The notes beneath the pieces are model-generated. The model ran no database searches, was not told where the DNA came from, and saw nothing but the letters and a program-made list of their open reading frames with translations. DNA of 64,000 nucleotides. Source: an uncultured Chloroflexia bacterium. GTDB lineage: Bacteria > Chloroflexota > Anaerolineae > Anaerolineales > Anaerolineaceae. Numbering within the stretch: the first letter of the stretch is position 1; each line of letters begins with the position of its first letter. Where the stretch lies: assembly GCA_963828285.1 (NCBI GenBank), contig CAWHEB010000002.1, positions 376,297 to 440,296 of the forward strand. The letters run 5' to 3'. This document shows positions 43,816 through 54,863 of this stretch, piece by piece. The position numbers and the translations under genes were made by a program.

Positions 43816-45096
43816 ATGTTTGACTTGAATCTGATCCGAGAAAATCCTGATTATGTTCGTGAATCGCTTCGTAAACGCCAGATGGATCCTGCTCCAGTGG
43901 ATGAGATCCTTGCACTGGATTCCAAAAGACGCTCCATCTTGATGGAAGTTGAATCCCTTAAAGCCGAGCGTAACTCTGTATCCAAAGAGATCAGCAAGAT
44001 GAAAGATCCAACAGAGCGACAGGCGAAGATCGATGCATCTCGTGAGTTGGGTGATCGTATCTCCGGGTTGGATGGCGAATTATCCACTGTCGAAGAAGCT
44101 TTGAGCGGGTTGGTGGCGCTCGTACCCAATGTACCTTCCGATCGGACCCCTTATGGCAAGGATGAACATGATAATCAAGTGATTCATACCTATAAAGAGC
44201 CCTCAGAGCTGCCTTTCCCGGCTAAGCCCCATTGGGACCTTGGACCGGAATTGGGGATTATTAATTTTGATCAGGGTATTAAGTTAACAGGGTCGAGATT
44301 TTACGTCCTCAGTGGCGCCGGCGCCAGATTGCAGCGTGCTTTGATCGCATGGATGTTGGACCTGCATATTCGTCAGGGATATACCGAGAAATATACCCCA
44401 TTCATGGTCAAGAGTGACGTTCTATTCGCCTCAGGGCAGCTTCCAAAGTTTCGGGACAATCTGTACCATGATGCAGAAGAAGACTTCTGGATGGTGCCTA
44501 CCGCTGAGGTGCCATTAACCGGTTTGCATGTAGGCGATTTCATCGAAGAAGACCAACTACCGCTCCACTATACTGCTTACACTCCCTGTTTTCGCAGGGA
44601 AAAAATGTCTGCCGGCCGGGATGTCAGAGGCATAAAACGTGGCCACCAGTTTGACAAAGTGGAAATGTACAAATTCTGTAAACCGGAAGACTCCATGGAT
44701 GAACTGGATAAAATGCTTCATGATGCCACTCAAACTGCTGAACTGCTGGGACTACCTTACCGTGTCTTACAGTTATGCACCGGCGATATTGGATTCAATG
44801 CCAGCATCACTTATGATGTAGAGGTCTGGGCTCCAGGCTGTGCAGAGTGGCTGGAAGTTTCCTCTGTCTCCAATGTGGGTGACTTTCAGGCAAGAAGGGC
44901 AAACATCAAATATCGCCCGTCAGATGGCGGTAAACCCCGCCTGGTGCATACATTGAATGGTTCAGGTCTTGGATTACCAAGGACCTTAATCGCGGTTATG
45001 GAAAATTATCAGCAACCAGACGGTTCAATTTTGATCCCGGAAGTGCTCAAACCGTGGATGGGTGGAATCGAGCGAATCTCATCGGAGAGTAAATGA
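43816..45096 (+). CDS. serS: Seryl-tRNA synthetase
   Basis: N-terminal coiled-coil [10 protein letters not shown]... Class II motifs (..FRRE..., GLGLPR). 426 aa. Confidence 0.95.
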
Positions 45097-45605
45097 CCCC
45101 CTGGTTGGAGGCACTTCTATTTGGATTGATCACAGCCACCATTATTGTGGGTTGGGTTGGTCTGATCATACCAATTTTTCCAGGGTTGAACATTATATGG
45201 CTGGCAACACTGGTATGGGGTCTTGTTAATAGCTTCGCATTCCCGGGATGGCTGATTTTCGCACTAATTTCCATTTTGATGGTTATTGGCAACTGGGCTG
45301 ATAACATTTTTATCAGCGGAAAAGCCAGATTAAGTGGAGCCAGTTGGTGGTCGATACTGGCTGGAAATATTGCCGCCATTATTGGAGCCATCGTTTTGCC
45401 ACCTCTGGGTGGAATCTTATTCGCTGTGTTGGGTGTATTCATTGTTGAGTTTATCCGTGACAAGGATTGGCGCAAAGCTCTAATCACTTCCAAAGAGATG
45501 ATGTGGGGATTTGGATGGGCAATCGGTGCCAGGTTAGCCATCGGGGGGTTGATGGCGTTATTGTGGATCATCTGGGCGTTTATCATCCCGATCCTCTTTA
45601 AGTAG
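45093..45605 (+). CDS. DUF456-like small membrane protein
   Basis: 170-aa, 4-TM ORF overlapping the serS stop (ATGA). PGL/GW-rich. Confidence 0.55.
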
Positions 45606-45619
45606 TAGAAGGATCATAT

Positions 45620-45656
45620 AAAAAAGACCGGTTTTCACCGGTCTTTTGATTTATTC
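45620..45656. terminator. Bidirectional Rho-independent terminator
   Basis: AAAAAAGACCGGT-tttca-CCGGTCTTTTGATTTATT between convergent operons. Confidence 0.75.
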
Positions 45657-45666
45657 TCGTCCTACT

Positions 45667-46086
45667 TCATCCTTCTTCAGTTATCTCGTATTTGGTTTTG
45701 ATTTCTACGACTTTTGAAAGCATCGCTTGCGCTGGGCAGTATTTGGTGGATGAGAGATCAATCGCTCGTTCCACTGCCATGGGGTCTATATTTTTCCCGG
45801 ACAGCTTGTAGGTGATCATCGCTGAAGTAAATACTCTTGGATGTTCACTTGCACGCTCCGTGTGGACATCCACTTCAAACTTGGTAATTTCCTGTCGCTT
45901 CTTTTCCAGAATCGAGATCACATCCATCGCTGTACAACCAGCAAGCCCAATGGCAAACAGTTCCATCGGTTTGAAACCTTCACTAGATCCTCGATCAGGA
46001 GATCTTGATGAGAGAGGAACTGTCATCAAGCTTCCAGCAAGACCGTCGAACTCCATTCCGCCCTTCCAGTTCACTTTCGCATCCAT
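45667..46086 (-). CDS. OsmC/Ohr family peroxiredoxin-like protein
   Basis: ..LFAIGLAGCTAMDVISIL.. and second Cys CPAQAM. Confidence 0.85.
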   Translation of the reverse strand: MDAKVNWKGGMEFDGLAGSLMTVPLSSRSPDRGSSEGFKPMELFAIGLAGCTAMDVISILEKKRQEITKFEVDVHTERASEHPRVFTSAMITYKLSGKNIDPMAVERAIDLSSTKYCPAQAMLSKVVEIKTKYEITEEG

Positions 46087-46098
46087 GTTTTTCCCTCC

Positions 46099-46800
46099 TT
46101 ATTCCTTCAATACTTTGACGATCTCATCCAACAACATTACCTCTGGTCCAGAGCCGATCATCTGACCTGCATTGTGATTAATTGCAGTATGAGGTACGCC
46201 AGATACCTGATAGTCTCCGGCAAGCTTCTGGAATTCTGTAGCTTCGATCATTTCCGCTTGGACATATTGGCTTTCGAGAGCCATCGCATGAGCGAGCGTC
46301 ACGGCTCGCGGACAGTATGGTCAGGTTGGGGTGGTAAACACCTGTAACAGAATATCTTCTTTATTCTTTTTAAGGAAAGCTTTTGTTGCAGGCGAAAGCC
46401 CTGATTCTCGTGACGAAACCAATATGACGTCATTGATCAAAGATGTAAACTCATGACCGGCTGGAATACCGTAGAATCGGATTCCATAATCCACGATCTC
46501 TTCCGCATTTTTCGCAGCCAAAACTATACCCGGAGCCTTATCAACATGATATTGTTTTGCTATTTTTGCATCACCATGAAGATGTTTTACTTCCAAGCTT
46601 AGCCTTGAATCCAAAGGGACGATCTCTTCAAGGATTTGTCTCGTCTGGGCACAAAAATCACAATGTTCATCATCTTCGAAAAATAATATTTTTACAGGTT
46701 CTAATAAATTCTCAGCAAGGACATCTTTTACCTGTGTGGTAATATCTTCATTCAACATTCTTTCCATATGTTTCCCATTCTCCGCGACGCGGGGAGGCAA
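46099..46800 (-). CDS. Predicted selenoprotein: two-domain glutaredoxin-like protein disulfide oxidoreductase (PDO-like) with UxxC in the second thioredoxin unit (in-frame UGA at 46321..46323)
   Basis: ORFs 46321..46800 and 46099..46302 are in the same frame, separated only by TGA. Joined, they read ..ILLQVFTTPT-[UGA]-PYCPRAVTLAHAMALE... That aligns with the second active site of archaeal/bacterial PDO (TPTCPYCP). First unit has CDFC. Confidence 0.65.
46292..46309 (-). promoter_or_regulatory. Candidate bacterial SECIS hairpin
   Basis: mRNA: UGA-ccauacugucc-GCGAGC-cgugac-GCUCGC. The 6-bp stem starts 11 nt after UGA. The loop contains GU. Confidence 0.45.
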
Positions 46801-46806
46801 AATTTA

Positions 46807-47013
46807 TCAGGTAAAACAGCTAGCTTCAACATACCCACAGTTATCGCAGCATAAATTTAGAAAATAATCATACTTGAGATTCCCATGGTCACAAACAGGA
46901 CATGGACGTTCACCGCCATCATTCCCAAGGTCAATATCAGGGAGATTGGTAAATTCTCCTTCGCTTGTATTATCTTCATGGTTTATCTTTTTTTGAATTT
47001 CAGCCATGATCAT
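46807..47013 (-). CDS. Small Cys-rich zinc-ribbon protein
   Basis: CPVC..(18)..CCDNC motifs. Translationally coupled to the anti-sigma gene. Confidence 0.4.
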   Translation of the reverse strand: MIMAEIQKKINHEDNTSEGEFTNLPDIDLGNDGGERPCPVCDHGNLKYDYFLNLCCDNCGYVEASCFT

Positions 47014-47258
47014 TCTTTCATAAAATTAGATATATCCAACGTCTTATGCAATCTTTCAACTACTGAGTTTGGTACATGCTGGTCTTCAGCAAGTTGATGA
47101 TAAAGGGAAATGGTCTTTTTGGTCGTATCCACAACAATACGACAGTTTGTACAAGTTAATATATGTTCATCCAATTGAGCTACCAATTCAGGAGGCAGCT
47201 CACCATCAATGTAATCGGATAAACAATCGACTAATTGTTCACAACAGGGTTTATTCAT
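47010..47258 (-). CDS. Zinc-associated (ZAS) anti-sigma factor, RsrA/ChrR-like
   Basis: HxxxCxxC motif EHILTCTNCR plus N-terminal CC. Immediately downstream of the ECF sigma gene. Confidence 0.7.
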   Translation of the reverse strand: MNKPCCEQLVDCLSDYIDGELPPELVAQLDEHILTCTNCRIVVDTTKKTISLYHQLAEDQHVPNSVVERLHKTLDISNFMKE

Positions 47259-47269
47259 TTCGTACCTTC

Positions 47270-47851
47270 CTATTGGGAATCTCCAAAGTATTGCGTCAAG
47301 GATTCCCGCAATGACAACCTCGCTCTGAGTAAACGGGTTTTAACTACTTCCTCTGAGACACCCAATAATTCTGCTGTTTCCAGGATGCTCAAACCTTGAA
47401 TATCGCGCAATATGAAAACCACCTTTAATTTTTCCGATAATATTTGAATTGCTTTATCAAGTTTTACCTTTATTTCTGCACCAATAACTTTTTCCTCAGG
47501 CAGTAATTCCCACGATCTGATCTCGCGTGGTGAACTAATTTCTTCATTTTCATCCTCATCAAGCGAAGCTATGATCTGCTTCCCTTTTCGCAAAACCTGT
47601 ATGGATTCATTCACTGCGATCCGGTATATCCAGGTATAGAGAGAGGACTTTCCTTGAAAACTGCTAATACTTCGAATTACTTTGATGAATGTTTCCTGGA
47701 GGACATCTTCGGCATCGAGAGTATTTCCAGTGATATTCAACGCCAATCGATAAATCGGATCAGAGTAAACTTCGATCAGCCTATTAAATTCATCCTTATC
47801 ACCTTTAACTAACAATTCAGCCGAAATGGTTGCATCCATGATTGTATTCAT
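47270..47851 (-). CDS. ECF-subfamily RNA polymerase sigma-70 factor
   Basis: Region 2 (..DVLQETFIKVIRSI..YTWIYRIAVN..) and region 4 HTH (LSILETAELLGVSEEVVKTRLLRAR). Confidence 0.9.
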   Translation of the reverse strand: MNTIMDATISAELLVKGDKDEFNRLIEVYSDPIYRLALNITGNTLDAEDVLQETFIKVIRSISSFQGKSSLYTWIYRIAVNESIQVLRKGKQIIASLDEDENEEISSPREIRSWELLPEEKVIGAEIKVKLDKAIQILSEKLKVVFILRDIQGLSILETAELLGVSEEVVKTRLLRARLSLRESLTQYFGDSQ

Positions 47852-47874
47852 TAGATACCTATTGCTTAGAAAAG

Positions 47875-48918
47875 TTACACGGACAACAATGGCCAGGTTG
47901 GAATAGCATCCAGATCCAATGATGAAGTATGTCCATTACTGAGTCGATAAAATCCAGCGCACGCAATCATCGCGGCGTTATCTGTGCATAAAGTAATATG
48001 CGGGATGTGAACAGGGATTTGTGATTGCAATGTCATTGAATCACGCAATGCCTTATTTGCAGAAACGCCGCCTGCCAAAATAATCTCGTTTGCCTTGAAT
48101 TCTTGAGCTGCTTTCAGGGTTTTTGCAACTAGCGTATCGACAACGGCAGCTTGAAAACTCGCTGCCAGATCATTCACAGGAATGGATTCTTTGTTTTCTT
48201 GAAGATGATGGACTGTTCTCAAAACTGACGTTTTGAGTCCGCTGAAAGAAAAGTCCCATGGATTATCAAGTCTCGCTCGTGGAAAATTGAAAGCGGTCGG
48301 ACTACCATTCTCAGAAGCCTTTTGGATGGAGGGTCCACCCGGATATGATAAACCTAACAATCTAGCCACTTTATCGAATGCTTCGCCGGCTGCGTCATCC
48401 ATGGTCTTTCCGAGTTGCTTATATTGTAAATGACCAGAAATTAATATCAACTCGGAATGTCCACCTGAAACCAGGAGAGCAAGCAAAGGGAAATTGGGCT
48501 CTGTAGGAATTGGTTTACCTTCCAAAACACTTTTCTGAGTGTAAACCCATGCGGAATAAATGTGCCCTTCAAGATGATTTACACCAATAAGAGGGATATT
48601 TCTTCCAAGAGCTAAACCCTTGGCCATGTTCAAGCCGACCACAAGCGACCCAGCCAGACCTGGACCTTGCGTCACTGCGATGGCATCAATATCGTGTAAT
48701 GTCATGTGGGCTTGTTGCAATGCCTGATCCACAACACCATACACGGTTTTAATATGTTGCCGGGATGCTACCTCAGGGAACACACCTCCATATTGAACGT
48801 GAAGATCGATCTGGGATGCAACCACATTGGATAGCAACATCCGGCCATTTTCAAGAACTGCCGCAGCCGTCTCATCGCATGAGGATTCAATTCCCAAGAT
48901 TCTCATCGGGGTGTCCAT
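47875..48918 (-). CDS. tsaD: tRNA N6-adenosine threonylcarbamoyltransferase
   Basis: MRILGIESSCDETAAAV.. and metal-binding HLEGH region. Confidence 0.95.
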   Translation of the reverse strand: MDTPMRILGIESSCDETAAAVLENGRMLLSNVVASQIDLHVQYGGVFPEVASRQHIKTVYGVVDQALQQAHMTLHDIDAIAVTQGPGLAGSLVVGLNMAKGLALGRNIPLIGVNHLEGHIYSAWVYTQKSVLEGKPIPTEPNFPLLALLVSGGHSELILISGHLQYKQLGKTMDDAAGEAFDKVARLLGLSYPGGPSIQKASENGSPTAFNFPRARLDNPWDFSFSGLKTSVLRTVHHLQENKESIPVNDLAASFQAAVVDTLVAKTLKAAQEFKANEIILAGGVSANKALRDSMTLQSQIPVHIPHITLCTDNAAMIACAGFYRLSNGHTSSLDLDAIPTWPLLSV

Positions 48919-48919
48919 A

Positions 48920-50158
48920 TCATTTTCCTTTTACTGGAATGACTAGATCCATCGGATACTCAACAAACCGTTGGATTGCGCCATCAGCTGTTACATAGAA
49001 GGTATCCTCAAGTCTGACACCAAATCCATTTTCTGGATAATACAAACCGGGTTCAATAGTAAACACCATACCTGGAGTTAGATTATCTTCTGCAGGCATG
49101 AATTGACTGAACCACGGTCCTTCGTGGACGCGTAATCCAAGCCCATGACCAAGACTGTGGTTATATCCATTGGTTGTATTGGGATCTTTTGCTATCGTTA
49201 CATGTCCCATGGATTCAAATAGTTCGCAGGTTCGCTGCTGGTATACCTGGCAAAGTACACCTGTCTTCAGTTCTCCGAGGATGGTGTCGTACACAGATTT
49301 CACTTGGTCGTAATGCTTTTGAATTTCAGGGGTGGCATACCCCAGGCACCAGGTTCTGGTGAAATCGTAAAAATAACCCCCACCTTTTTCACAGGGAAAG
49401 ATGTCGAAAACGATTGTTTGTCCAGCTCGCAGTTGATCTGATGTTGTACCGGAAGAATGACCGATCCCGGCATCACGGCCGATTGAAAAGATTGTCCCTT
49501 CCGGGTTTTCCGCGCCTGCTTCAGCAAGCCATAGATCGATCCGTGATTTCACGTCACCTACTGTAATTGCATTACCTTTCTCATTGACTAATACTCCATC
49601 TCTCAAACAATTAGAGGACAAGTATTGTTGGACTTTTCCAACCACATTTACGGTAACCTCACCCATTCTTCTAATACGGTCTATTTCATCTGGTCTTTTA
49701 AGAATCGCTGAAGCATCCAATACAGATTTATCCATTTCACCAGTTAATATCAAGCCTGGCATTATTGCCTTCAATTCATTTAATACCGCCCAATCGTGAG
49801 TCAGATCCACTTGACCATACAATCCAACTTTCCCAGTGGTAAGTTGATACTTTTCCAGATAGTGTTTAAGCAAGAGAGCACTCCCCTTTGCTTTATTATC
49901 CGGGTGTTCTTTCATAAACTTGATCAATATCTCAAAATCGAAAGTATCCACTAACAGACCCGACCTGGCGGCTTCTTCACGTTCCATACTGTTTGCCACC
50001 AATACAGGGGCAGATCCATATTTCTTAATCAGCATTGCATTGGTAAAATGGCCCCCGCCGGTAAGATAAACCATGGATGGATTATGATCGCCATTTCCAA
50101 AAACGATGATTCCTTCCATATCCTTTAATTTAAGTAATTGATCAAGATCAGTATTCAA
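48920..50158 (-). CDS. M24-family Xaa-Pro aminopeptidase/prolidase-like peptidase
   Basis: Pita-bread fold motifs (..HGLGHGLGLRVHEGP.., ..TIEPGLY..). Confidence 0.8.
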   Translation of the reverse strand: MNTDLDQLLKLKDMEGIIVFGNGDHNPSMVYLTGGGHFTNAMLIKKYGSAPVLVANSMEREEAARSGLLVDTFDFEILIKFMKEHPDNKAKGSALLLKHYLEKYQLTTGKVGLYGQVDLTHDWAVLNELKAIMPGLILTGEMDKSVLDASAILKRPDEIDRIRRMGEVTVNVVGKVQQYLSSNCLRDGVLVNEKGNAITVGDVKSRIDLWLAEAGAENPEGTIFSIGRDAGIGHSSGTTSDQLRAGQTIVFDIFPCEKGGGYFYDFTRTWCLGYATPEIQKHYDQVKSVYDTILGELKTGVLCQVYQQRTCELFESMGHVTIAKDPNTTNGYNHSLGHGLGLRVHEGPWFSQFMPAEDNLTPGMVFTIEPGLYYPENGFGVRLEDTFYVTADGAIQRFVEYPMDLVIPVKGK

Positions 50159-51515
50159 AGTAACCCTCCGTCTTCATAAGTCGTATCGTCGCAATCAGTT
50201 CGTTTTCCTGTTCTGCAAAGATTGTTCTGGGATCCAATACCAGTTCGTCATGATCGATCCTCCCAATGACTGGAGGATCAGCTGACCGTAATCGTTTCAT
50301 ACATTTTTGCGGATTCTTGGGCTTGATTGTCAGCAACCATGTAGGAAGCGTATCACCTGGAAGACTACCTCCACCTACAGTGGAAAAACCGGAAGTGATC
50401 CGTCCAAATCCCAACTCGGTCTGCCATTCTTCAGCCTTTTTTTGAATATCAGTCGCGGATTTCGAGATCATTGACCATACAGGGATATCAGATAAAGCTG
50501 TTCCGCGAAGATAATCAATCACTGTTGCGTGTAAAGCGCTCAAGCAGAGTTTATCAGCCCGGACTGCTCTGGCTAATGGATGGCGTTTGACTTTATCGAG
50601 AAGTATCTTTTTTCCCAGGATGATCCCTGCTTGAGGGCCACCCAATAATTTGTCACCGCTGAAACAGATCACATCTACTCCAGCAGATATGGATTCCTGT
50701 ACCATGGGTTCATGCGATAATCCGAATTCTTTGGTGTCGAGAAGCGCCCCGGAACCAAGATCATCAATGAAAATTGCACCATACCGGTGGGCAAGTTCAA
50801 CCAAATCGATTAATTCGGGTTCGCTTGTGTAACCGATGATTTTAAAATTTGACGAATGAGCCCTGACAACGATCTTGGCACCTTCGATCAGTTTGTCTTC
50901 GTAATCGTCCAGGTGAACCTGATTTGTGGTCCCCACTTCGATCAGTTTTACACCTGATTGCCGCATCACATCAGGGATTCGAAATCCGCCACCAATTTCA
51001 ACTAGTTGACTGCGTGAGATGATCGCTTTTTTTCGGTTTCCTAGCGAGGTTAATACTAATAGCACAGCTGCAGCGTTGTTATTGACAACCAGAGCTGCTT
51101 CAGCATGAGTTAATTGAGTCAATACCTGATTCAGATGGTCGTGGCGGGAGCCACGGGTCCCTTTATCTAGATCAAATTCGAGCGAGGAATATCCTATTGA
51201 TGTCTCGCGTACCCTATACAATGCCTCCAGGCTTATGGGCGCCCTTCCTAAATTAGTATGGAGAATCACGCCAGAAGCATTGATGACTGGACTCAGCGTT
51301 GGCATTGTCCACTTTGTTAATATTTTTCTGATTGTTGAAATGATGGCAGGTTTTTCGGAAGAAAACATAACCTTCTCGTTACGCATATCATCCAGAACAT
51401 GGCGGGCAGCTTCAACAGTCAGGTTATGTCCGAATTCCGCAACCAGTTTTCCACACTCTGCTTCGTTGAGAATAGTTTCAATGGATGGCAGAGTGCGAAG
51501 ATCATTCATTTTCAT
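50148..51515 (-). CDS. selA: L-seryl-tRNA(Sec) selenium transferase
   Basis: PLP-lysine signature FSGDKLLGGPQAGIILGKK. SelA-length (455 aa). N-terminal LPSIETIL region. Confidence 0.9.
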   Translation of the reverse strand: MKMNDLRTLPSIETILNEAECGKLVAEFGHNLTVEAARHVLDDMRNEKVMFSSEKPAIISTIRKILTKWTMPTLSPVINASGVILHTNLGRAPISLEALYRVRETSIGYSSLEFDLDKGTRGSRHDHLNQVLTQLTHAEAALVVNNNAAAVLLVLTSLGNRKKAIISRSQLVEIGGGFRIPDVMRQSGVKLIEVGTTNQVHLDDYEDKLIEGAKIVVRAHSSNFKIIGYTSEPELIDLVELAHRYGAIFIDDLGSGALLDTKEFGLSHEPMVQESISAGVDVICFSGDKLLGGPQAGIILGKKILLDKVKRHPLARAVRADKLCLSALHATVIDYLRGTALSDIPVWSMISKSATDIQKKAEEWQTELGFGRITSGFSTVGGGSLPGDTLPTWLLTIKPKNPQKCMKRLRSADPPVIGRIDHDELVLDPRTIFAEQENELIATIRLMKTEGYFEY

Positions 51516-53700: not shown

Positions 53701-54417
53701 CTAACCCTGGGTTTCTAAAGGTTCAGCGATGATAAATAACCTTCCCCATGAAGGTTCACCATCTTTGGCAACGCAAGTTTGAAGGACCAGATGGGGTTCT
53801 CCCTGATACATTTTTTGGAAGAGCTGCCCTGCGGTGATTTGTTCTTCTGATTCCAAGTCAACGAACTTTGATGATGTGCTATTCGGTGAAAGCGCCTGGA
53901 ATTGGTTTATGGATGTCACAACATACTGTGTTCCCAAACCATCCCCATTTGCCACTGTGATTACATCACCCTGTACGACCGAACTGAAACTGCTGCCCGC
54001 CAGGTAGTTGTGTGCCAATAAGCCAATTACGCCGTAATCGGATGCGGGAGCAAATTGAGTAACTACTCCCTGAATTGTTGAAACAAAACCTGCCTGTCCG
54101 GTTGGTTGCTGAACAATACGGAGGGCGAAAGTATCCTCCAGATAGATCCCTTTAAGTACTGTTTCATCTGTATCAAGAGCTAAAATGAATTCTGTAACCG
54201 AGATATTCGGAGCCAGTGATGATACTAATGTTGTTGTACTATCTGTGACAGGGATAACAGAAGCCGATACTGCTGAAATCGGAAAAACACTCATCAGTAA
54301 GATTGCTGAAAGTGAAGAAATTTGAATTAATTTACGCAAAAGACTTGTCATCGTATCCTTTGATGACAAGGGCATTGAGATTTCTCGGGATTGAAAGGAG
54401 GGGAGGAGGAAATTCAC
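53701..54417 (-). CDS. Sortase-family transpeptidase
   Basis: Signal/TM anchor. Catalytic His (LAHNYLAG), TLxTC-type Cys motif (HLVLQTCVA), conserved Arg downstream (WGRLF). Confidence 0.65.
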   Translation of the reverse strand: MNFLLPSFQSREISMPLSSKDTMTSLLRKLIQISSLSAILLMSVFPISAVSASVIPVTDSTTTLVSSLAPNISVTEFILALDTDETVLKGIYLEDTFALRIVQQPTGQAGFVSTIQGVVTQFAPASDYGVIGLLAHNYLAGSSFSSVVQGDVITVANGDGLGTQYVVTSINQFQALSPNSTSSKFVDLESEEQITAGQLFQKMYQGEPHLVLQTCVAKDGEPSWGRLFIIAEPLETQG

Positions 54418-54863
54418 CGCAGACGAAGGTTCGGCGGCTTGGCAATCATGGCTGGAAACTCCCCAACTTTAGATCCATAGCTTTGCGACCCCGGTTTTCA
54501 CCAGGTGTGCCCTTGTCGGTCATTCGTTTGTAAATGTGCGAGTTGTTTCGTTAGTAAGATTATAGGTTAGGCGTGCGTTAGGTTTAGGATATACACCTTA
54601 CAAGAACCTTACAAAACGGTTGAGTCTAATATATTAAGCATATTTGCATCATCTTTGTCTAATTTCAACCAATTCCTTATCCTATATCGGAAAAATAAAG
54701 TGGAATTTTTCTTTAAGTACACATTATGCAAACATTCTCCATTCGTGTTGCATTTGTCTGACATTTGGATATATAATTTTATTGATTAGCGATAAATCTG
54801 CCTGAAAGTTATAAATATCCAAGAACAAAATCCTTATCAAGTAGACGAAAGGAATAAAAATCC

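What the first reader, a model, noticed from the sequence alone, without database searches (positions are those of the whole stretch)
45667..47851. Redox-stress operon: ECF sigma, ZAS anti-sigma, Zn-ribbon, Sec-PDO, OsmC
Five co-directional, tightly spaced or overlapping genes (4-nt overlaps at 47010/47013 and 46800/46807) end at a strong terminator at 45620..45656. The ZAS anti-sigma factor (HxxxCxxC) is the thiol-redox sensing class, as in RsrA, whose regulon classically includes thioredoxin-system genes. Here the regulated oxidoreductase appears to be a selenoprotein, which ties Sec use to a thiol-stress sigma circuit.
Basis: inference. Interest (0 to 1): 0.65.

Follow-up and report, generated by a model that had tools for sequence, protein, structure and literature searches.

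The report
Thiol-stress sigma operon with selenoprotein
An Anaerolineae bacterium carries a stress-sigma-factor/zinc anti-sigma pair joined to a selenocysteine-containing disulfide oxidoreductase, a small zinc-ribbon protein and an OsmC protein; this extends a known kind of thiol-stress circuit to a new phylum and is not a new principle.

Summary
Five co-directional minus-strand genes (45667-47851) encode an ECF sigma, an 82-aa RsrA-like zinc anti-sigma (ZAS), a 68-aa zinc-ribbon protein (Znr), a two-domain protein disulfide oxidoreductase (PDO) with an in-frame UGA, and an OsmC/YhfA-like protein. They end at a strong hairpin terminator.

The UGA codes for selenocysteine. It replaces the first Cys of CPYC. 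28 of 82 related loci have TGA there and the rest have TGC or TGT. A hairpin 11 nt downstream is kept by synonymous codon choice only in the TGA forms. selA lies 2.3 kb upstream.

The regulatory link is supported. Sigma-ZAS sits directly upstream of the PDO in 70 of 81 Anaerolineae loci. One ECF-type motif, TGTAAC(T/C)TTT-N12-CATCTAA, precedes the sigma gene. In most species a second copy precedes Znr-PDO, and elsewhere it precedes thioredoxin genes.

Corrections:
- The PDO starts at ATG 46767, so there is no overlap at 46800/46807.
- The single five-gene operon is specific to this lineage.
- Sec is optional in this circuit, since two thirds of species use Cys.
- The selenoprotein family (TIGR02187) is already known.

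One point is unexplained: the sigma promoter's -10 element abuts the sigma start codon.

The parts
47850..47879 (-). P1, an ECF-type promoter-like motif. TGTAAC (47879-47874) overlaps the tsaD stop codon. TATCTA (47857-47852) abuts the sigma ATG.
   Evidence: It is the only PWM hit of at least 9 bits in the 64-kb window, at 27.5 bits. The core pattern matches once against 0.23 expected. The same motif sits at the sigma start in 59 of 70 species.
47270..47851 (-). ECF sigma factor, 193 aa, SigW/RpoE-like.
   Evidence: Pfam Sigma70_r2 at 65.6 bits and r4_2 at 50.7 bits. TIGR02937 at 113.9 bits against a cut-off of 42.9. Best solved relative is B. subtilis SigW 5WUQ at 99 bits, versus SigR 1H3L at 41 bits.
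47010..47258 (-). Soluble zinc anti-sigma factor (ZAS), 82 aa, with C6-X25-H32-X3-C36-X2-C39.
   Evidence: Pfam zf-HC2 at 42.3 bits. The four ligand positions are invariant in 72-73 of 73 orthologues. The profile's best PDB match is RsrA 5FRF at E = 1.1e-5 over the full length. No hydrophobic segment is visible in the sequence.
46807..47013 (-). Znr: 68-aa zinc-ribbon protein (CPxC...CxxC) with a conserved C-terminal Cys (ASCFT; GGCFT or GGGGCT in relatives).
   Evidence: No Pfam or NCBIfam match. 585 homologues were found; every listed one that carries an organism name is from Anaerolineae/Chloroflexota, and none has a functional annotation. C38, C41, C56 and C59 are invariant, and G65, C66 and F67 are kept in at least 90%. 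The AF2 model shows a zinc-ribbon C-terminus with pLDDT about 90 and a disordered N-terminus. The fold search found only generic zinc ribbons.
46099..46767 (-). Protein disulfide oxidoreductase, 222 aa, two thioredoxin folds. N-terminal motif CDFC, C-terminal motif UPYC (Sec at codon 149).
   Evidence: TIGR02187 at 255 bits against a cut-off of 185. P. furiosus PDO 1A8L at E = 3.9e-40. 64-65% identical to full-length Cys homologues.
46321..46323 (-). In-frame UGA read as selenocysteine.
   Evidence: It aligns with the first Cys of CPYC in homologues. The codon is TGA in 28 related loci and TGC or TGT in 52.
46292..46309 (-). Bacterial SECIS-like hairpin GCGAGC-CGUGAC-GCUCGC, starting 11 nt after the UGA.
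   Evidence: All six stem pairs form in 27 of 29 Sec genes but in only 3 of 54 Cys genes, although the encoded peptide is the same. Compensatory variants GCAAGC/GCUUGC occur in L023 and L076, and a shifted paired variant in L008. The loop CGUG is conserved.
45667..46086 (-). OsmC-family protein, 139 aa, YhfA-like, with both family cysteines (C51, C116).
   Evidence: Pfam OsmC at 70.2 bits. Best solved relative is E. coli YhfA 1ML8 at E = 1.9e-22. Both Cys are present in 76 of 76 orthologues.
45622..45647 (-). Intrinsic terminator hairpin followed by a U run, shared with the convergent DUF456 gene.
   Evidence: -17 kcal/mol, z = -3.7.

Best explanation
This is a cytoplasmic thiol/oxidative-stress module of Anaerolineae.

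Proposed mechanism:
1. A SigW/RpoE-like ECF sigma is held inactive by a small soluble RsrA-like zinc anti-sigma.
2. Oxidation or alkylation of the zinc-ligand cysteines would release the sigma (inferred).
3. The free sigma directs RNA polymerase to promoters of the type TGTAAC(T/C)TTT-N12-CATCTAA.
4. These promoters drive a zinc-ribbon protein with a C-terminal cysteine (Znr), a two-domain protein disulfide oxidoreductase (PDO) and an OsmC/YhfA-like two-cysteine protein. In other species they also drive thioredoxin, glutaredoxin and a membrane-anchored TlpA-like redoxin.

In this genome the C-terminal active site of the PDO is UPYC. The UGA is recoded to selenocysteine by a SECIS hairpin 11 nt downstream, and the organism carries selA nearby.

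In the window's lineage the genes have fused into one transcription unit behind the single promoter at the sigma gene, and the unit ends at the hairpin at 45622-45647.

By analogy with archaeal PDO and the AhpF N-terminal domain, the PDO most likely passes reducing equivalents to partner thiol proteins, with OsmC and/or Znr as candidates (inferred).

What is shown: gene content, Sec recoding signals, conserved linkage, and the shared cis-motif. What is inferred: redox sensing by the ZAS, sigma recognition of the motif, and electron flow.
For: Gene identities.

Selenocysteine:
- The UGA aligns with the Cys of CPYC.
- TGA appears in 28 of 82 orthologous loci.
- The hairpin is kept by synonymous-site selection only in Sec forms, with compensatory changes.
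- selA lies at 50148-51515.
- The family is already listed as the UxxC selenoprotein TIGR02187 (PMC13188914; PMC1794560).

Linkage:
- Sigma-ZAS is directly upstream of the PDO in 70 of 81 loci, and OsmC is downstream in 76. Only about 24 loci share the upstream tsaD.
- The same order occurs in the cultured Anaerolinea thermophila UNI-1.

Cis-element:
- The motif is at the sigma gene in 59 of 70 loci and upstream of Znr/PDO in 64 of 81. This includes loci where the sigma is not adjacent: L015, L042, L046, L050.
- Of 195 high-scoring copies in 160 loci, by my reading of the listing about 191 lie just upstream of, and co-oriented with, a sigma, Znr, PDO, thioredoxin, OsmC-like or DUF302 gene.
- There is a single copy in the 64-kb window.
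- The Znr start codon lies 6-9 nt after CATCTA in about 25 loci, which fits a promoter giving a leaderless mRNA.

Redox flavour: the genes inserted between PDO and OsmC in about 48 species are a WCPPC redoxin, a glutaredoxin and a NifX-like protein.
Against: - No experiment exists. The redox sensitivity of this ZAS is unproven, and many ZAS proteins do not sense redox (for example RsiW, the second-best match).
- The RsrA equivalog model scores below its cut-off, 29.9 against 62.5.
- The sigma is not of the SigR/SigH clade.
- At the sigma gene the -10-like element abuts the only usable start codon, and the spacer holds a Shine-Dalgarno-like sequence. A transcript from this promoter may therefore not encode the sigma. 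Classical positive autoregulation is thus doubtful.
- Seeded on the ZAS instead of the PDO, only 30 of 51 informative metagenome loci have the PDO next door.
- selB, selD and tRNA-Sec are not in the window.
Confidence: 0.7

Rival explanations
1. The motif is not a promoter recognised by this sigma. It is the operator of an unlinked transcription factor, or an RNA-level element, shared by the sigma and the redox genes.
For: At the sigma gene the motif overlaps the Shine-Dalgarno-like sequence and the start codon, a typical place for an operator. The geometry is wrong for a promoter that must produce a translatable sigma mRNA.
Against: The two blocks (TGnAAC, then 16-17 nt between AAC and CATCTA) resemble ECF promoters of the SigW/SigM/SigX and RpoE type (my own knowledge), and the sigma is SigW/RpoE-like. 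The motif is not palindromic. At Znr the start codon lies 6-9 nt after CATCTA, as expected of a -10 element. The motif travels with the sigma-ZAS pair across species.
Confidence: 0.1
2. The module is an ECF/ZAS pair responding to a signal other than thiol oxidation (metal, singlet oxygen, envelope or electrophile stress). Zinc would be purely structural, and the redox genes a downstream protective output only.
For: The HxxxCxxC motif alone does not predict redox sensing (general knowledge; PMC7406223, notes mixed zinc and non-zinc groups). RsiW is nearly as good a match as RsrA. The RsrA model scores below its cut-off.
Against: The anti-sigma is short and soluble. It keeps the RsrA C11/H37/C41/C44 spacing, and in 67 of 73 orthologues a further Cys sits six residues before the His; from memory this matches RsrA C31. 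The predicted regulon is almost purely thiol-redox proteins, including thioredoxin.
Confidence: 0.15
3. The UGA is a true stop codon. The PDO would then be split into a 148-aa N-terminal protein and a separately translated C-terminal thioredoxin-fold protein, as public annotation has it.
For: Public gene calls stop at the UGA (P0002, 148 aa). A GTG lies 18 nt downstream in frame. No tRNA-Sec, selB or selD is in the window.
Against: The UGA sits exactly at the catalytic Cys of CPYC, and the reading frame and sequence stay conserved across it. TGA recurs at this one codon in 28 species. The SECIS-like stem is maintained only in TGA genes. selA is present. A GTG start would delete the active site.
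Confidence: 0.03
4. The five genes are merely the tail of a long housekeeping operon (selA-pepP-tsaD-...), and the sigma/ZAS adjacency to PDO/OsmC has no regulatory meaning.
For: selA, pepP, tsaD and the sigma gene are co-directional, with an 11-nt overlap, a 1-nt gap and a 23-nt gap. No separate housekeeping promoter is visible in the window lineage.
Against: The sigma-to-OsmC block is conserved in about 46 species that lack tsaD upstream. The shared motif marks the PDO even when it is detached from the sigma.
Confidence: 0.05

Closest known systems
SigR-RsrA (Streptomyces coelicolor) and SigH-RshA (mycobacteria): ECF12 thiol-oxidative-stress modules
   Same: A small soluble zinc anti-sigma with C-X25-H-X3-C-X2-C, encoded right after its ECF sigma. 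The predicted regulon is made of thiol-redox proteins including thioredoxin. RsrA is the best solved relative of the anti-sigma.
   Different: The sigma is SigW/RpoE-like, not ECF12. The promoter is TGTAAC-N16-CATCTAA rather than GGAAT-N18-GTT (the latter from my own knowledge). The phylum is Chloroflexota and there is no mycothiol context. The RsrA equivalog cut-off is not reached. The leading targets are Znr, PDO and OsmC. The promoter at the sigma gene abuts the start codon.
SigW-RsiW of Bacillus subtilis
   Same: It is the closest solved sigma (5WUQ, 99 bits), and the anti-sigma N-domain also matches. The promoter shape TGAAAC-N16-CGTA is similar (my own knowledge).
   Different: RsiW is a membrane protein inactivated by regulated proteolysis. 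The protein here is 82 aa and soluble. The regulon content differs.
[quoted passage not shown]
   Same: The same NCBIfam model scores above its cut-off. The Sec position (UxxC) is the same. The family is listed as a predicted selenoprotein family (PMC13188914, PMC1794560).
   Different: Here it is found in Anaerolineae, with TGA in 28 of the 82 related loci examined, and embedded in an ECF sigma/ZAS module. The literature search found no paper that makes this link.
Archaeal/Aquifex protein disulfide oxidoreductases (P. furiosus PDO 1A8L, A. aeolicus 2AYT) and the AhpF N-terminal domain
   Same: Two thioredoxin folds with a CxxC in each. E = 3.9e-40 to 1A8L.
   Different: Those proteins use Cys. 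Their reductant is thioredoxin reductase, or a fused one in AhpF. The partner here is unknown.
OsmC/Ohr family, YhfA subgroup (E. coli YhfA, 1ML8)
   Same: The OsmC fold with both conserved cysteines.
   Different: It scores below the YhfA equivalog cut-off, 101.6 against 138. The activity of this subgroup is not established.

Membership tests
Bacterial selenoprotein gene (Sec-UGA recoding) | In-frame UGA at a position occupied by a redox-active Cys in homologues, with conserved coding sequence on both sides | tested here: met
   The motif is UPYC versus CPYC, with TGA in 28 related loci and TGC or TGT in 52.
Bacterial selenoprotein gene (Sec-UGA recoding) | SECIS stem-loop immediately downstream of the UGA (about 11 nt spacer, G/U in the apical loop) | tested here: met
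   The element is UGA-N11-GCGAGC-CGUGAC-GCUCGC. Six of six pairs form in 27 of 29 Sec genes against 3 of 54 Cys genes, with compensatory changes. No Rfam model matched.
Bacterial selenoprotein gene (Sec-UGA recoding) | Sec machinery (selA, selB, selC, selD) in the genome | tested here: inconclusive
   selA is present at 50148-51515. There is no tRNA in the window and no selB. selB is seen in related metagenome contigs. The rest of the genome is not available.
Bacterial selenoprotein gene (Sec-UGA recoding) | Selenium incorporated into the full-length protein | not testable with these tools
   Needs 75Se labelling or mass spectrometry.
TIGR02187 protein disulfide oxidoreductase (AhpF N-terminal-domain homologue) | Score above the curated cut-off, and two thioredoxin folds each with CxxC | tested here: met
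   255.1 bits against 185. The motifs are CDFC and UPYC. 1A8L at E = 3.9e-40.
ECF (group 4) sigma factor | Only regions sigma2 and sigma4, of about 190 aa | tested here: met
   TIGR02937 at 113.9 bits against a cut-off of 42.9.
ECF (group 4) sigma factor | Co-transcribed cognate anti-sigma factor | tested here: met
   The ZAS starts 11 nt after the sigma stop codon. The pair is conserved in 70 of 81 loci.
ECF (group 4) sigma factor | Autoregulated from an AAC...CGT-type promoter upstream of its own gene | tested here: inconclusive
   The motif is present and conserved. However, its -10 element abuts the start codon, so the transcript may not encode the sigma.
RsrA-type redox-sensing ZAS anti-sigma | HxxxCxxC plus an upstream Cys ligand (C-X25-H) | tested here: met
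   C6, H32, C36 and C39 are invariant in 72-73 of 73 orthologues.
RsrA-type redox-sensing ZAS anti-sigma | Soluble, about 80-110 aa, no transmembrane segment | tested here: met
   The protein is 82 aa and orthologues are 81-91 aa. No hydrophobic stretch is visible in the sequence.
RsrA-type redox-sensing ZAS anti-sigma | Reaches the RsrA equivalog model (TIGR03988) and pairs with an ECF12 SigR/SigH sigma | tested here: not met
   29.9 bits against a cut-off of 62.5. The sigma is closest to SigW at 99 bits, versus SigH at 60 bits and SigR at 41 bits.
RsrA-type redox-sensing ZAS anti-sigma | Oxidation-triggered zinc release and sigma release | not testable with these tools
   Needs biochemistry.
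OsmC/Ohr thiol peroxidase family | OsmC fold with the two conserved cysteines | tested here: met
   PF02566 at 70.2 bits. Both Cys are present in 76 of 76 orthologues.
OsmC/Ohr thiol peroxidase family | Membership of a characterised subgroup (OsmC, Ohr or the YhfA equivalog) | tested here: not met
   All score below their cut-offs: PRK10738 at 101.6 against 138, OsmC at 19.1 against 85.8, Ohr at 17.5 against 88.9.

The most novel reading that the evidence does not exclude
The ECF-type promoter at the sigma gene fires about 6 nt inside the sigma reading frame. The sigma-dependent transcript would then encode the anti-sigma and the effectors (Znr, seleno-PDO, OsmC) but not the sigma itself, which is made only from housekeeping or read-through mRNA. 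That would be an ECF module wired for negative feedback alone. In addition, Znr, with its flexible C-terminal GGC(F)T tail, would be a dedicated thiol partner of the (seleno)PDO. The repeated neighbourhood of selA or selB would reflect co-expression of Sec machinery with this stress circuit.
Probability: 0.15. Interest if true: 0.6.

Novelty: new member of a known kind. Interest (0 to 1): 0.35.

Why it matters
- It gives Anaerolineae, which are abundant in digesters, sediments and wetlands and are hard to grow, a concrete and testable oxidative/thiol-stress regulon with a defined promoter motif. Cultured carriers exist: Anaerolinea thermophila UNI-1 and Bellilinea caldifistulae.
- It shows that an RsrA-like soluble zinc anti-sigma can pair with a SigW/RpoE-like sigma outside the Actinobacteria.
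- It corrects a systematic annotation error: the PDO is truncated at the UGA in public records.
- It documents a clean natural series in one fixed regulatory context. There are 29 Sec and 53 Cys orthologues, and a SECIS visible purely through synonymous-site constraint. This is useful for studying why Sec is kept or lost.
- It flags an uncharacterised family of small proteins with five conserved cysteines (Znr) that always travels with the PDO.

Tried and rejected
- Rfam found no SECIS or other RNA family in the region, either at gathering thresholds or at E up to 10.
- The sigma-70 consensus scan gave no more promoter-like sites than shuffled sequence, 9 against 7.2. It listed the terminator only on the + strand; folding the minus strand confirmed it there too.
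- Assignment to an ECF group was not possible. The main text of the reclassification paper does not mention thioredoxin, glutaredoxin or OsmC contexts, and its supplements are not held.
- Literature searches for a link between selenoproteins and ECF/anti-sigma factors found nothing relevant.
- Znr gave no functional lead. It has no Pfam or NCBIfam family, and the fold search returned only generic zinc ribbons with best E = 0.33.
- I looked for an alternative in-frame start codon that would let P1 yield a translatable sigma mRNA. None exists within 30 codons in at least 11 species. The window itself has a second ATG at codon 5.
- I considered a TTG start at 46800 for the PDO and rejected it in favour of the conserved ATG at 46767.
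- I considered the tsaD/selA linkage as part of the unit. It is confined to about 24 of 81 loci.
Full report
**1. What is in the sequence**

On the minus strand of 45667-47851 there are five consecutive ORFs.
- Sigma: 47270-47851, 193 aa.
- ZAS anti-sigma: 47010-47258, 82 aa.
- A 68-aa protein with CPVC...CDNC (Znr): 46807-47013.
- A glutaredoxin/thioredoxin-like ORF that stops at a TGA (46321-46323) but continues in frame to 46099.
- OsmC: 45667-46086.

Pfam and NCBIfam give the following.
- Sigma: Sigma70_r2 and r4_2, and the ECF superfamily model above its cut-off.
- ZAS: zf-HC2.
- Znr: nothing.
- The read-through protein: TIGR02187 'PDO_seleno_TRX' at 255 bits against a cut-off of 185.
- The last gene: OsmC.

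Spacing is tight. There is an 11-nt gap between sigma and ZAS, a 4-nt ATGA overlap between ZAS and Znr, and a 12-nt gap with AGGAGGG before OsmC. Every homologue begins MERMLN..., which puts the PDO start at ATG 46767 and leaves a 39-nt gap.

The cluster ends 19 nt after the OsmC stop codon, at an 11-bp hairpin (45647-45622) followed by a U run. Its energy is -17 kcal/mol with z = -3.7. The hairpin lies between convergent genes.

Upstream on the same strand are tsaD (47875-48918), an M24 peptidase gene (pepP, 48920-50158) and selA (50148-51515; PF03841 at 434 bits).

**2. The PDO is a selenoprotein**

The TGA replaces the first Cys of the C-terminal CPYC motif. The closest full-length homologues (64-65% identity) have CPYC there.

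Across 82 orthologous loci from Anaerolineae genomes the codon is TGA in 28, and TGC or TGT in 52.

Eleven nucleotides after the UGA there is a 6-bp stem with a 6-nt loop, GCGAGC-CGUGAC-GCUCGC. In Sec genes all six pairs form in 27 of 29 cases. In Cys genes this holds in 3 of 54, even though both groups mostly encode the same peptide (PYCPRAVVLAH). So the stem is maintained through synonymous codon choice. Compensatory GCAAGC/GCUUGC variants occur.

[quoted passage not shown] Its best solved relatives are the P. furiosus, P. horikoshii and Aquifex PDOs.

Public gene calls truncate this gene at the UGA (P0002, 148 aa).

On a neighbour-joining tree the Sec and Cys forms are interleaved, with at least 16 changes among 82 sequences. 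Because the SECIS is nearly identical throughout, repeated Sec-to-Cys loss is the simplest reading (inference).

**3. The sigma and the anti-sigma**

The ZAS has C6-X25-H32-X3-C36-X2-C39. All four positions are invariant in 72-73 of 73 orthologues, which are 81-91 aa long and show no hydrophobic segment. In 67 of 73 orthologues a further Cys sits six residues before the His, which from memory matches the position of RsrA C31; the window protein has Val there.

A profile of the family finds RsrA (5FRF) as the best solved match over its whole length (E = 1.1e-5), followed by RsiW. The RsrA equivalog model scores below its cut-off, 29.9 against 62.5.

The sigma is closest to B. subtilis SigW (99 bits), then to the RpoE/AlgU type. 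M. tuberculosis SigH scores 60 bits and SigR 41 bits.

So the architecture works like SigR-RsrA, but the pair is not a member of that clade.

**4. Linkage across genomes**

A scan of one genome per species, seeded on the PDO, returned 80 Anaerolineae loci. tblastn with the window's proteins gave these results.
- Sigma-ZAS lies immediately upstream of the PDO on the same strand in 70 of 81 loci.
- OsmC lies downstream in 76.
- Only about 24 loci share the upstream tsaD/pepP/selA.

The conserved core is therefore sigma-ZAS-(Znr)-PDO-...-OsmC.

In about 48 species one to three genes are inserted between PDO and OsmC. These are a membrane-anchored WCPPC redoxin (PF00578/PF08534), a glutaredoxin (PF00462) and a NifX-like protein (PF02579).

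Anaerolinea thermophila UNI-1 has selA-pepP-tsaD-sigma-ZAS-Znr(ANT_12040)-PDO(Cys)-OsmC.

Seeding on the ZAS instead, in metagenomes, 30 of 51 loci with at least 1.1 kb downstream have the PDO and 4 have OsmC and/or Znr only. The rest have other neighbours, among them a convergent selB seen in 10 of the 80 loci. The pair is therefore not always next to the PDO.

**5. A shared ECF-type cis-element**

Unbiased two-block counting on the 200 nt upstream of the sigma genes recovered one motif, with consensus TGTAAC(T/C)TTT-N12-CATCTAA.

In the window it is TGTAACTTTTCTAAGCAATAGGTATCTAA (47879-47851). It fills the tsaD-sigma gap and overlaps the tsaD stop codon. It is the only hit of at least 9 bits in 64 kb, at 27.5 bits; the core pattern matches once against 0.23 expected.

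A second copy (P2) lies between the ZAS and Znr/PDO in 64 of 81 loci. This includes loci where the sigma is several kb away, on the other strand or absent from the fetched stretch: L015, L042, L046, L050.

The window and its closest relatives (L003, L005, L006) lack P2 and have fused the genes into one unit.

A two-block PWM scan of all 160 fetched loci gave 195 hits of at least 19 bits. By my reading of the listing, they break down as follows.

| Gene immediately downstream | Hits |
|---|---|
| Sigma | about 99 |
| Znr | about 62 |
| PDO | about 25 |
| Thioredoxin (PF00085, 109 and 100 bits) | 2 |
| OsmC-like | 2 |
| DUF302 | 1 |
| Unclear | 4 |

The motif resembles the SigW/SigM/SigX (TGnAAC-N16/17-CGTC/CGTA) and RpoE (GGAACTT-N16-TCAAA) promoter types (my own knowledge). 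This agrees with the sigma's nearest relatives.

At P2 the Znr start codon lies 6-9 nt after CATCTA in about 25 species, which fits a leaderless mRNA. In the Bellilinea group it follows a roughly 30-nt leader with a Shine-Dalgarno sequence.

**6. An unexplained point**

At P1 the hexamer CATCTA ends 0-1 nt (range 0-5) before the sigma ATG. An in-frame TAA often precedes that ATG. In at least 11 species no other ATG, GTG or TTG exists in the first 30 codons.

The P1 spacer, unlike P2 spacers, usually carries AGG or GAGG 8-12 nt before the ATG. Loci without tsaD upstream show a housekeeping-like -10 box (TATACT, TACAAT or TAGAAT) 15-40 nt upstream of P1.

With the normal 5-8 nt between an ECF -10 element and the transcription start, P1 transcripts would begin just inside the sigma ORF. 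The sigma would then be translated from upstream or read-through mRNA, and P1 would serve the ZAS and, in this lineage, Znr-PDO-OsmC. In the window itself a second ATG at codon 5 could rescue translation. This needs 5'-end mapping.

**7. Znr**

The family has 585 members; every listed one that carries an organism name is from Anaerolineae/Chloroflexota, and all are 'hypothetical'.

It has a variable, disordered N-terminus and a CPxC...CPxC zinc ribbon. It ends in an almost invariant GGCFT (or GGGGCT; ASCFT in the window).

The fold search gives only generic zinc ribbons.

Its constant position as the first gene of the P2 unit, directly before the PDO, suggests a redox partner or substrate of the PDO. 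This is inference only.

**8. Mechanism and comparison**

The most likely reading is a cytoplasmic thiol/oxidative-stress module. A zinc-thiolate anti-sigma releases a SigW-like ECF sigma on oxidation. The sigma then transcribes Znr, the (seleno)PDO, OsmC and, elsewhere in the genome, thioredoxin-type genes. The PDO acts as a disulfide reductase for partner thiol proteins, as archaeal PDOs and the AhpF N-terminal domain do.

- Shown here: gene identities, Sec recoding signals, linkage, and the shared motif.
- Inferred: redox sensing, sigma-motif recognition, and electron flow.

**9. Verdict**

The circuit regulates the PDO whether it carries Sec or Cys. The five-gene operon is a lineage-specific fusion. 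The selenoprotein family and the ZAS-ECF principle are both known.

It is a new member of a known kind, with two open curiosities: the P1 geometry and Znr. Interest: 0.35.

Noticed in passing
window 54429-54520 (-), with ORF 53701-54417 (-): A c-di-GMP-I-GGC riboswitch (RF03167, 63.4 bits against a gathering score of 59) sits directly upstream of a 238-aa ORF that has a weak Sortase-domain match.
   Followed up: no
window 47875-51515 (-): selA (50148-51515), an M24 peptidase gene (pepP, 48920-50158) and tsaD (47875-48918) run co-directionally into the sigma gene, with an 11-nt overlap, a 1-nt gap and a 23-nt gap. The selenocysteine synthase gene and the stress-sigma cluster may therefore share read-through transcripts. 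The same order is found in 23 of the 80 species loci, and also in Anaerolinea thermophila UNI-1.
   Followed up: partly
L089, L117, L130, L139, L143, L157 and four more metagenome loci (for example L130 6259-8163, -): In another lineage the same kind of sigma-ZAS pair is followed by a convergent selB (SelB winged-helix domains confirmed in L130). Sec-machinery genes thus neighbour this sigma pair in two different arrangements.
   Followed up: partly
window 46807-47013 (-); family alignment A4: This is an uncharacterised small-protein family (585 homologues; those with an organism name are Anaerolineae/Chloroflexota). It has a zinc ribbon plus a near-invariant C-terminal GGCFT or GGGGCT tail, giving five conserved cysteines. 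It is always placed just before the PDO and is often translated from a leaderless mRNA.
   Followed up: partly
window 47849-47879 (-), and the matching stretch in L005-L084: The ECF-type -10 element abuts the sigma start codon, and the promoter spacer contains a Shine-Dalgarno-like sequence. Loci without tsaD have a housekeeping-like -10 box 15-40 nt further upstream. The sigma-dependent transcript may therefore not encode the sigma.
   Followed up: partly
window 46321-46767 (-); protein P0002: Public records (NCBI, ENA, Logan) annotate the PDO as a 148-aa protein ending at the Sec UGA. The C-terminal thioredoxin fold with the active site is left unannotated.
   Followed up: yes
L152 about 4296 (-), L155 about 4528 (-), L136 4827, L140 2343, L162 4570: High-scoring copies of the same promoter motif precede thioredoxin (two loci), a second OsmC-like gene (two loci) and a DUF302 gene. 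These are probable further regulon members.
   Followed up: partly
window 43816-45605 (+): serS (seryl-tRNA synthetase, which also charges tRNA-Sec) and a DUF456 membrane protein overlap by 4 nt and converge on the same terminator as the OsmC gene. This pairing is conserved only in the closest relatives.
   Followed up: no
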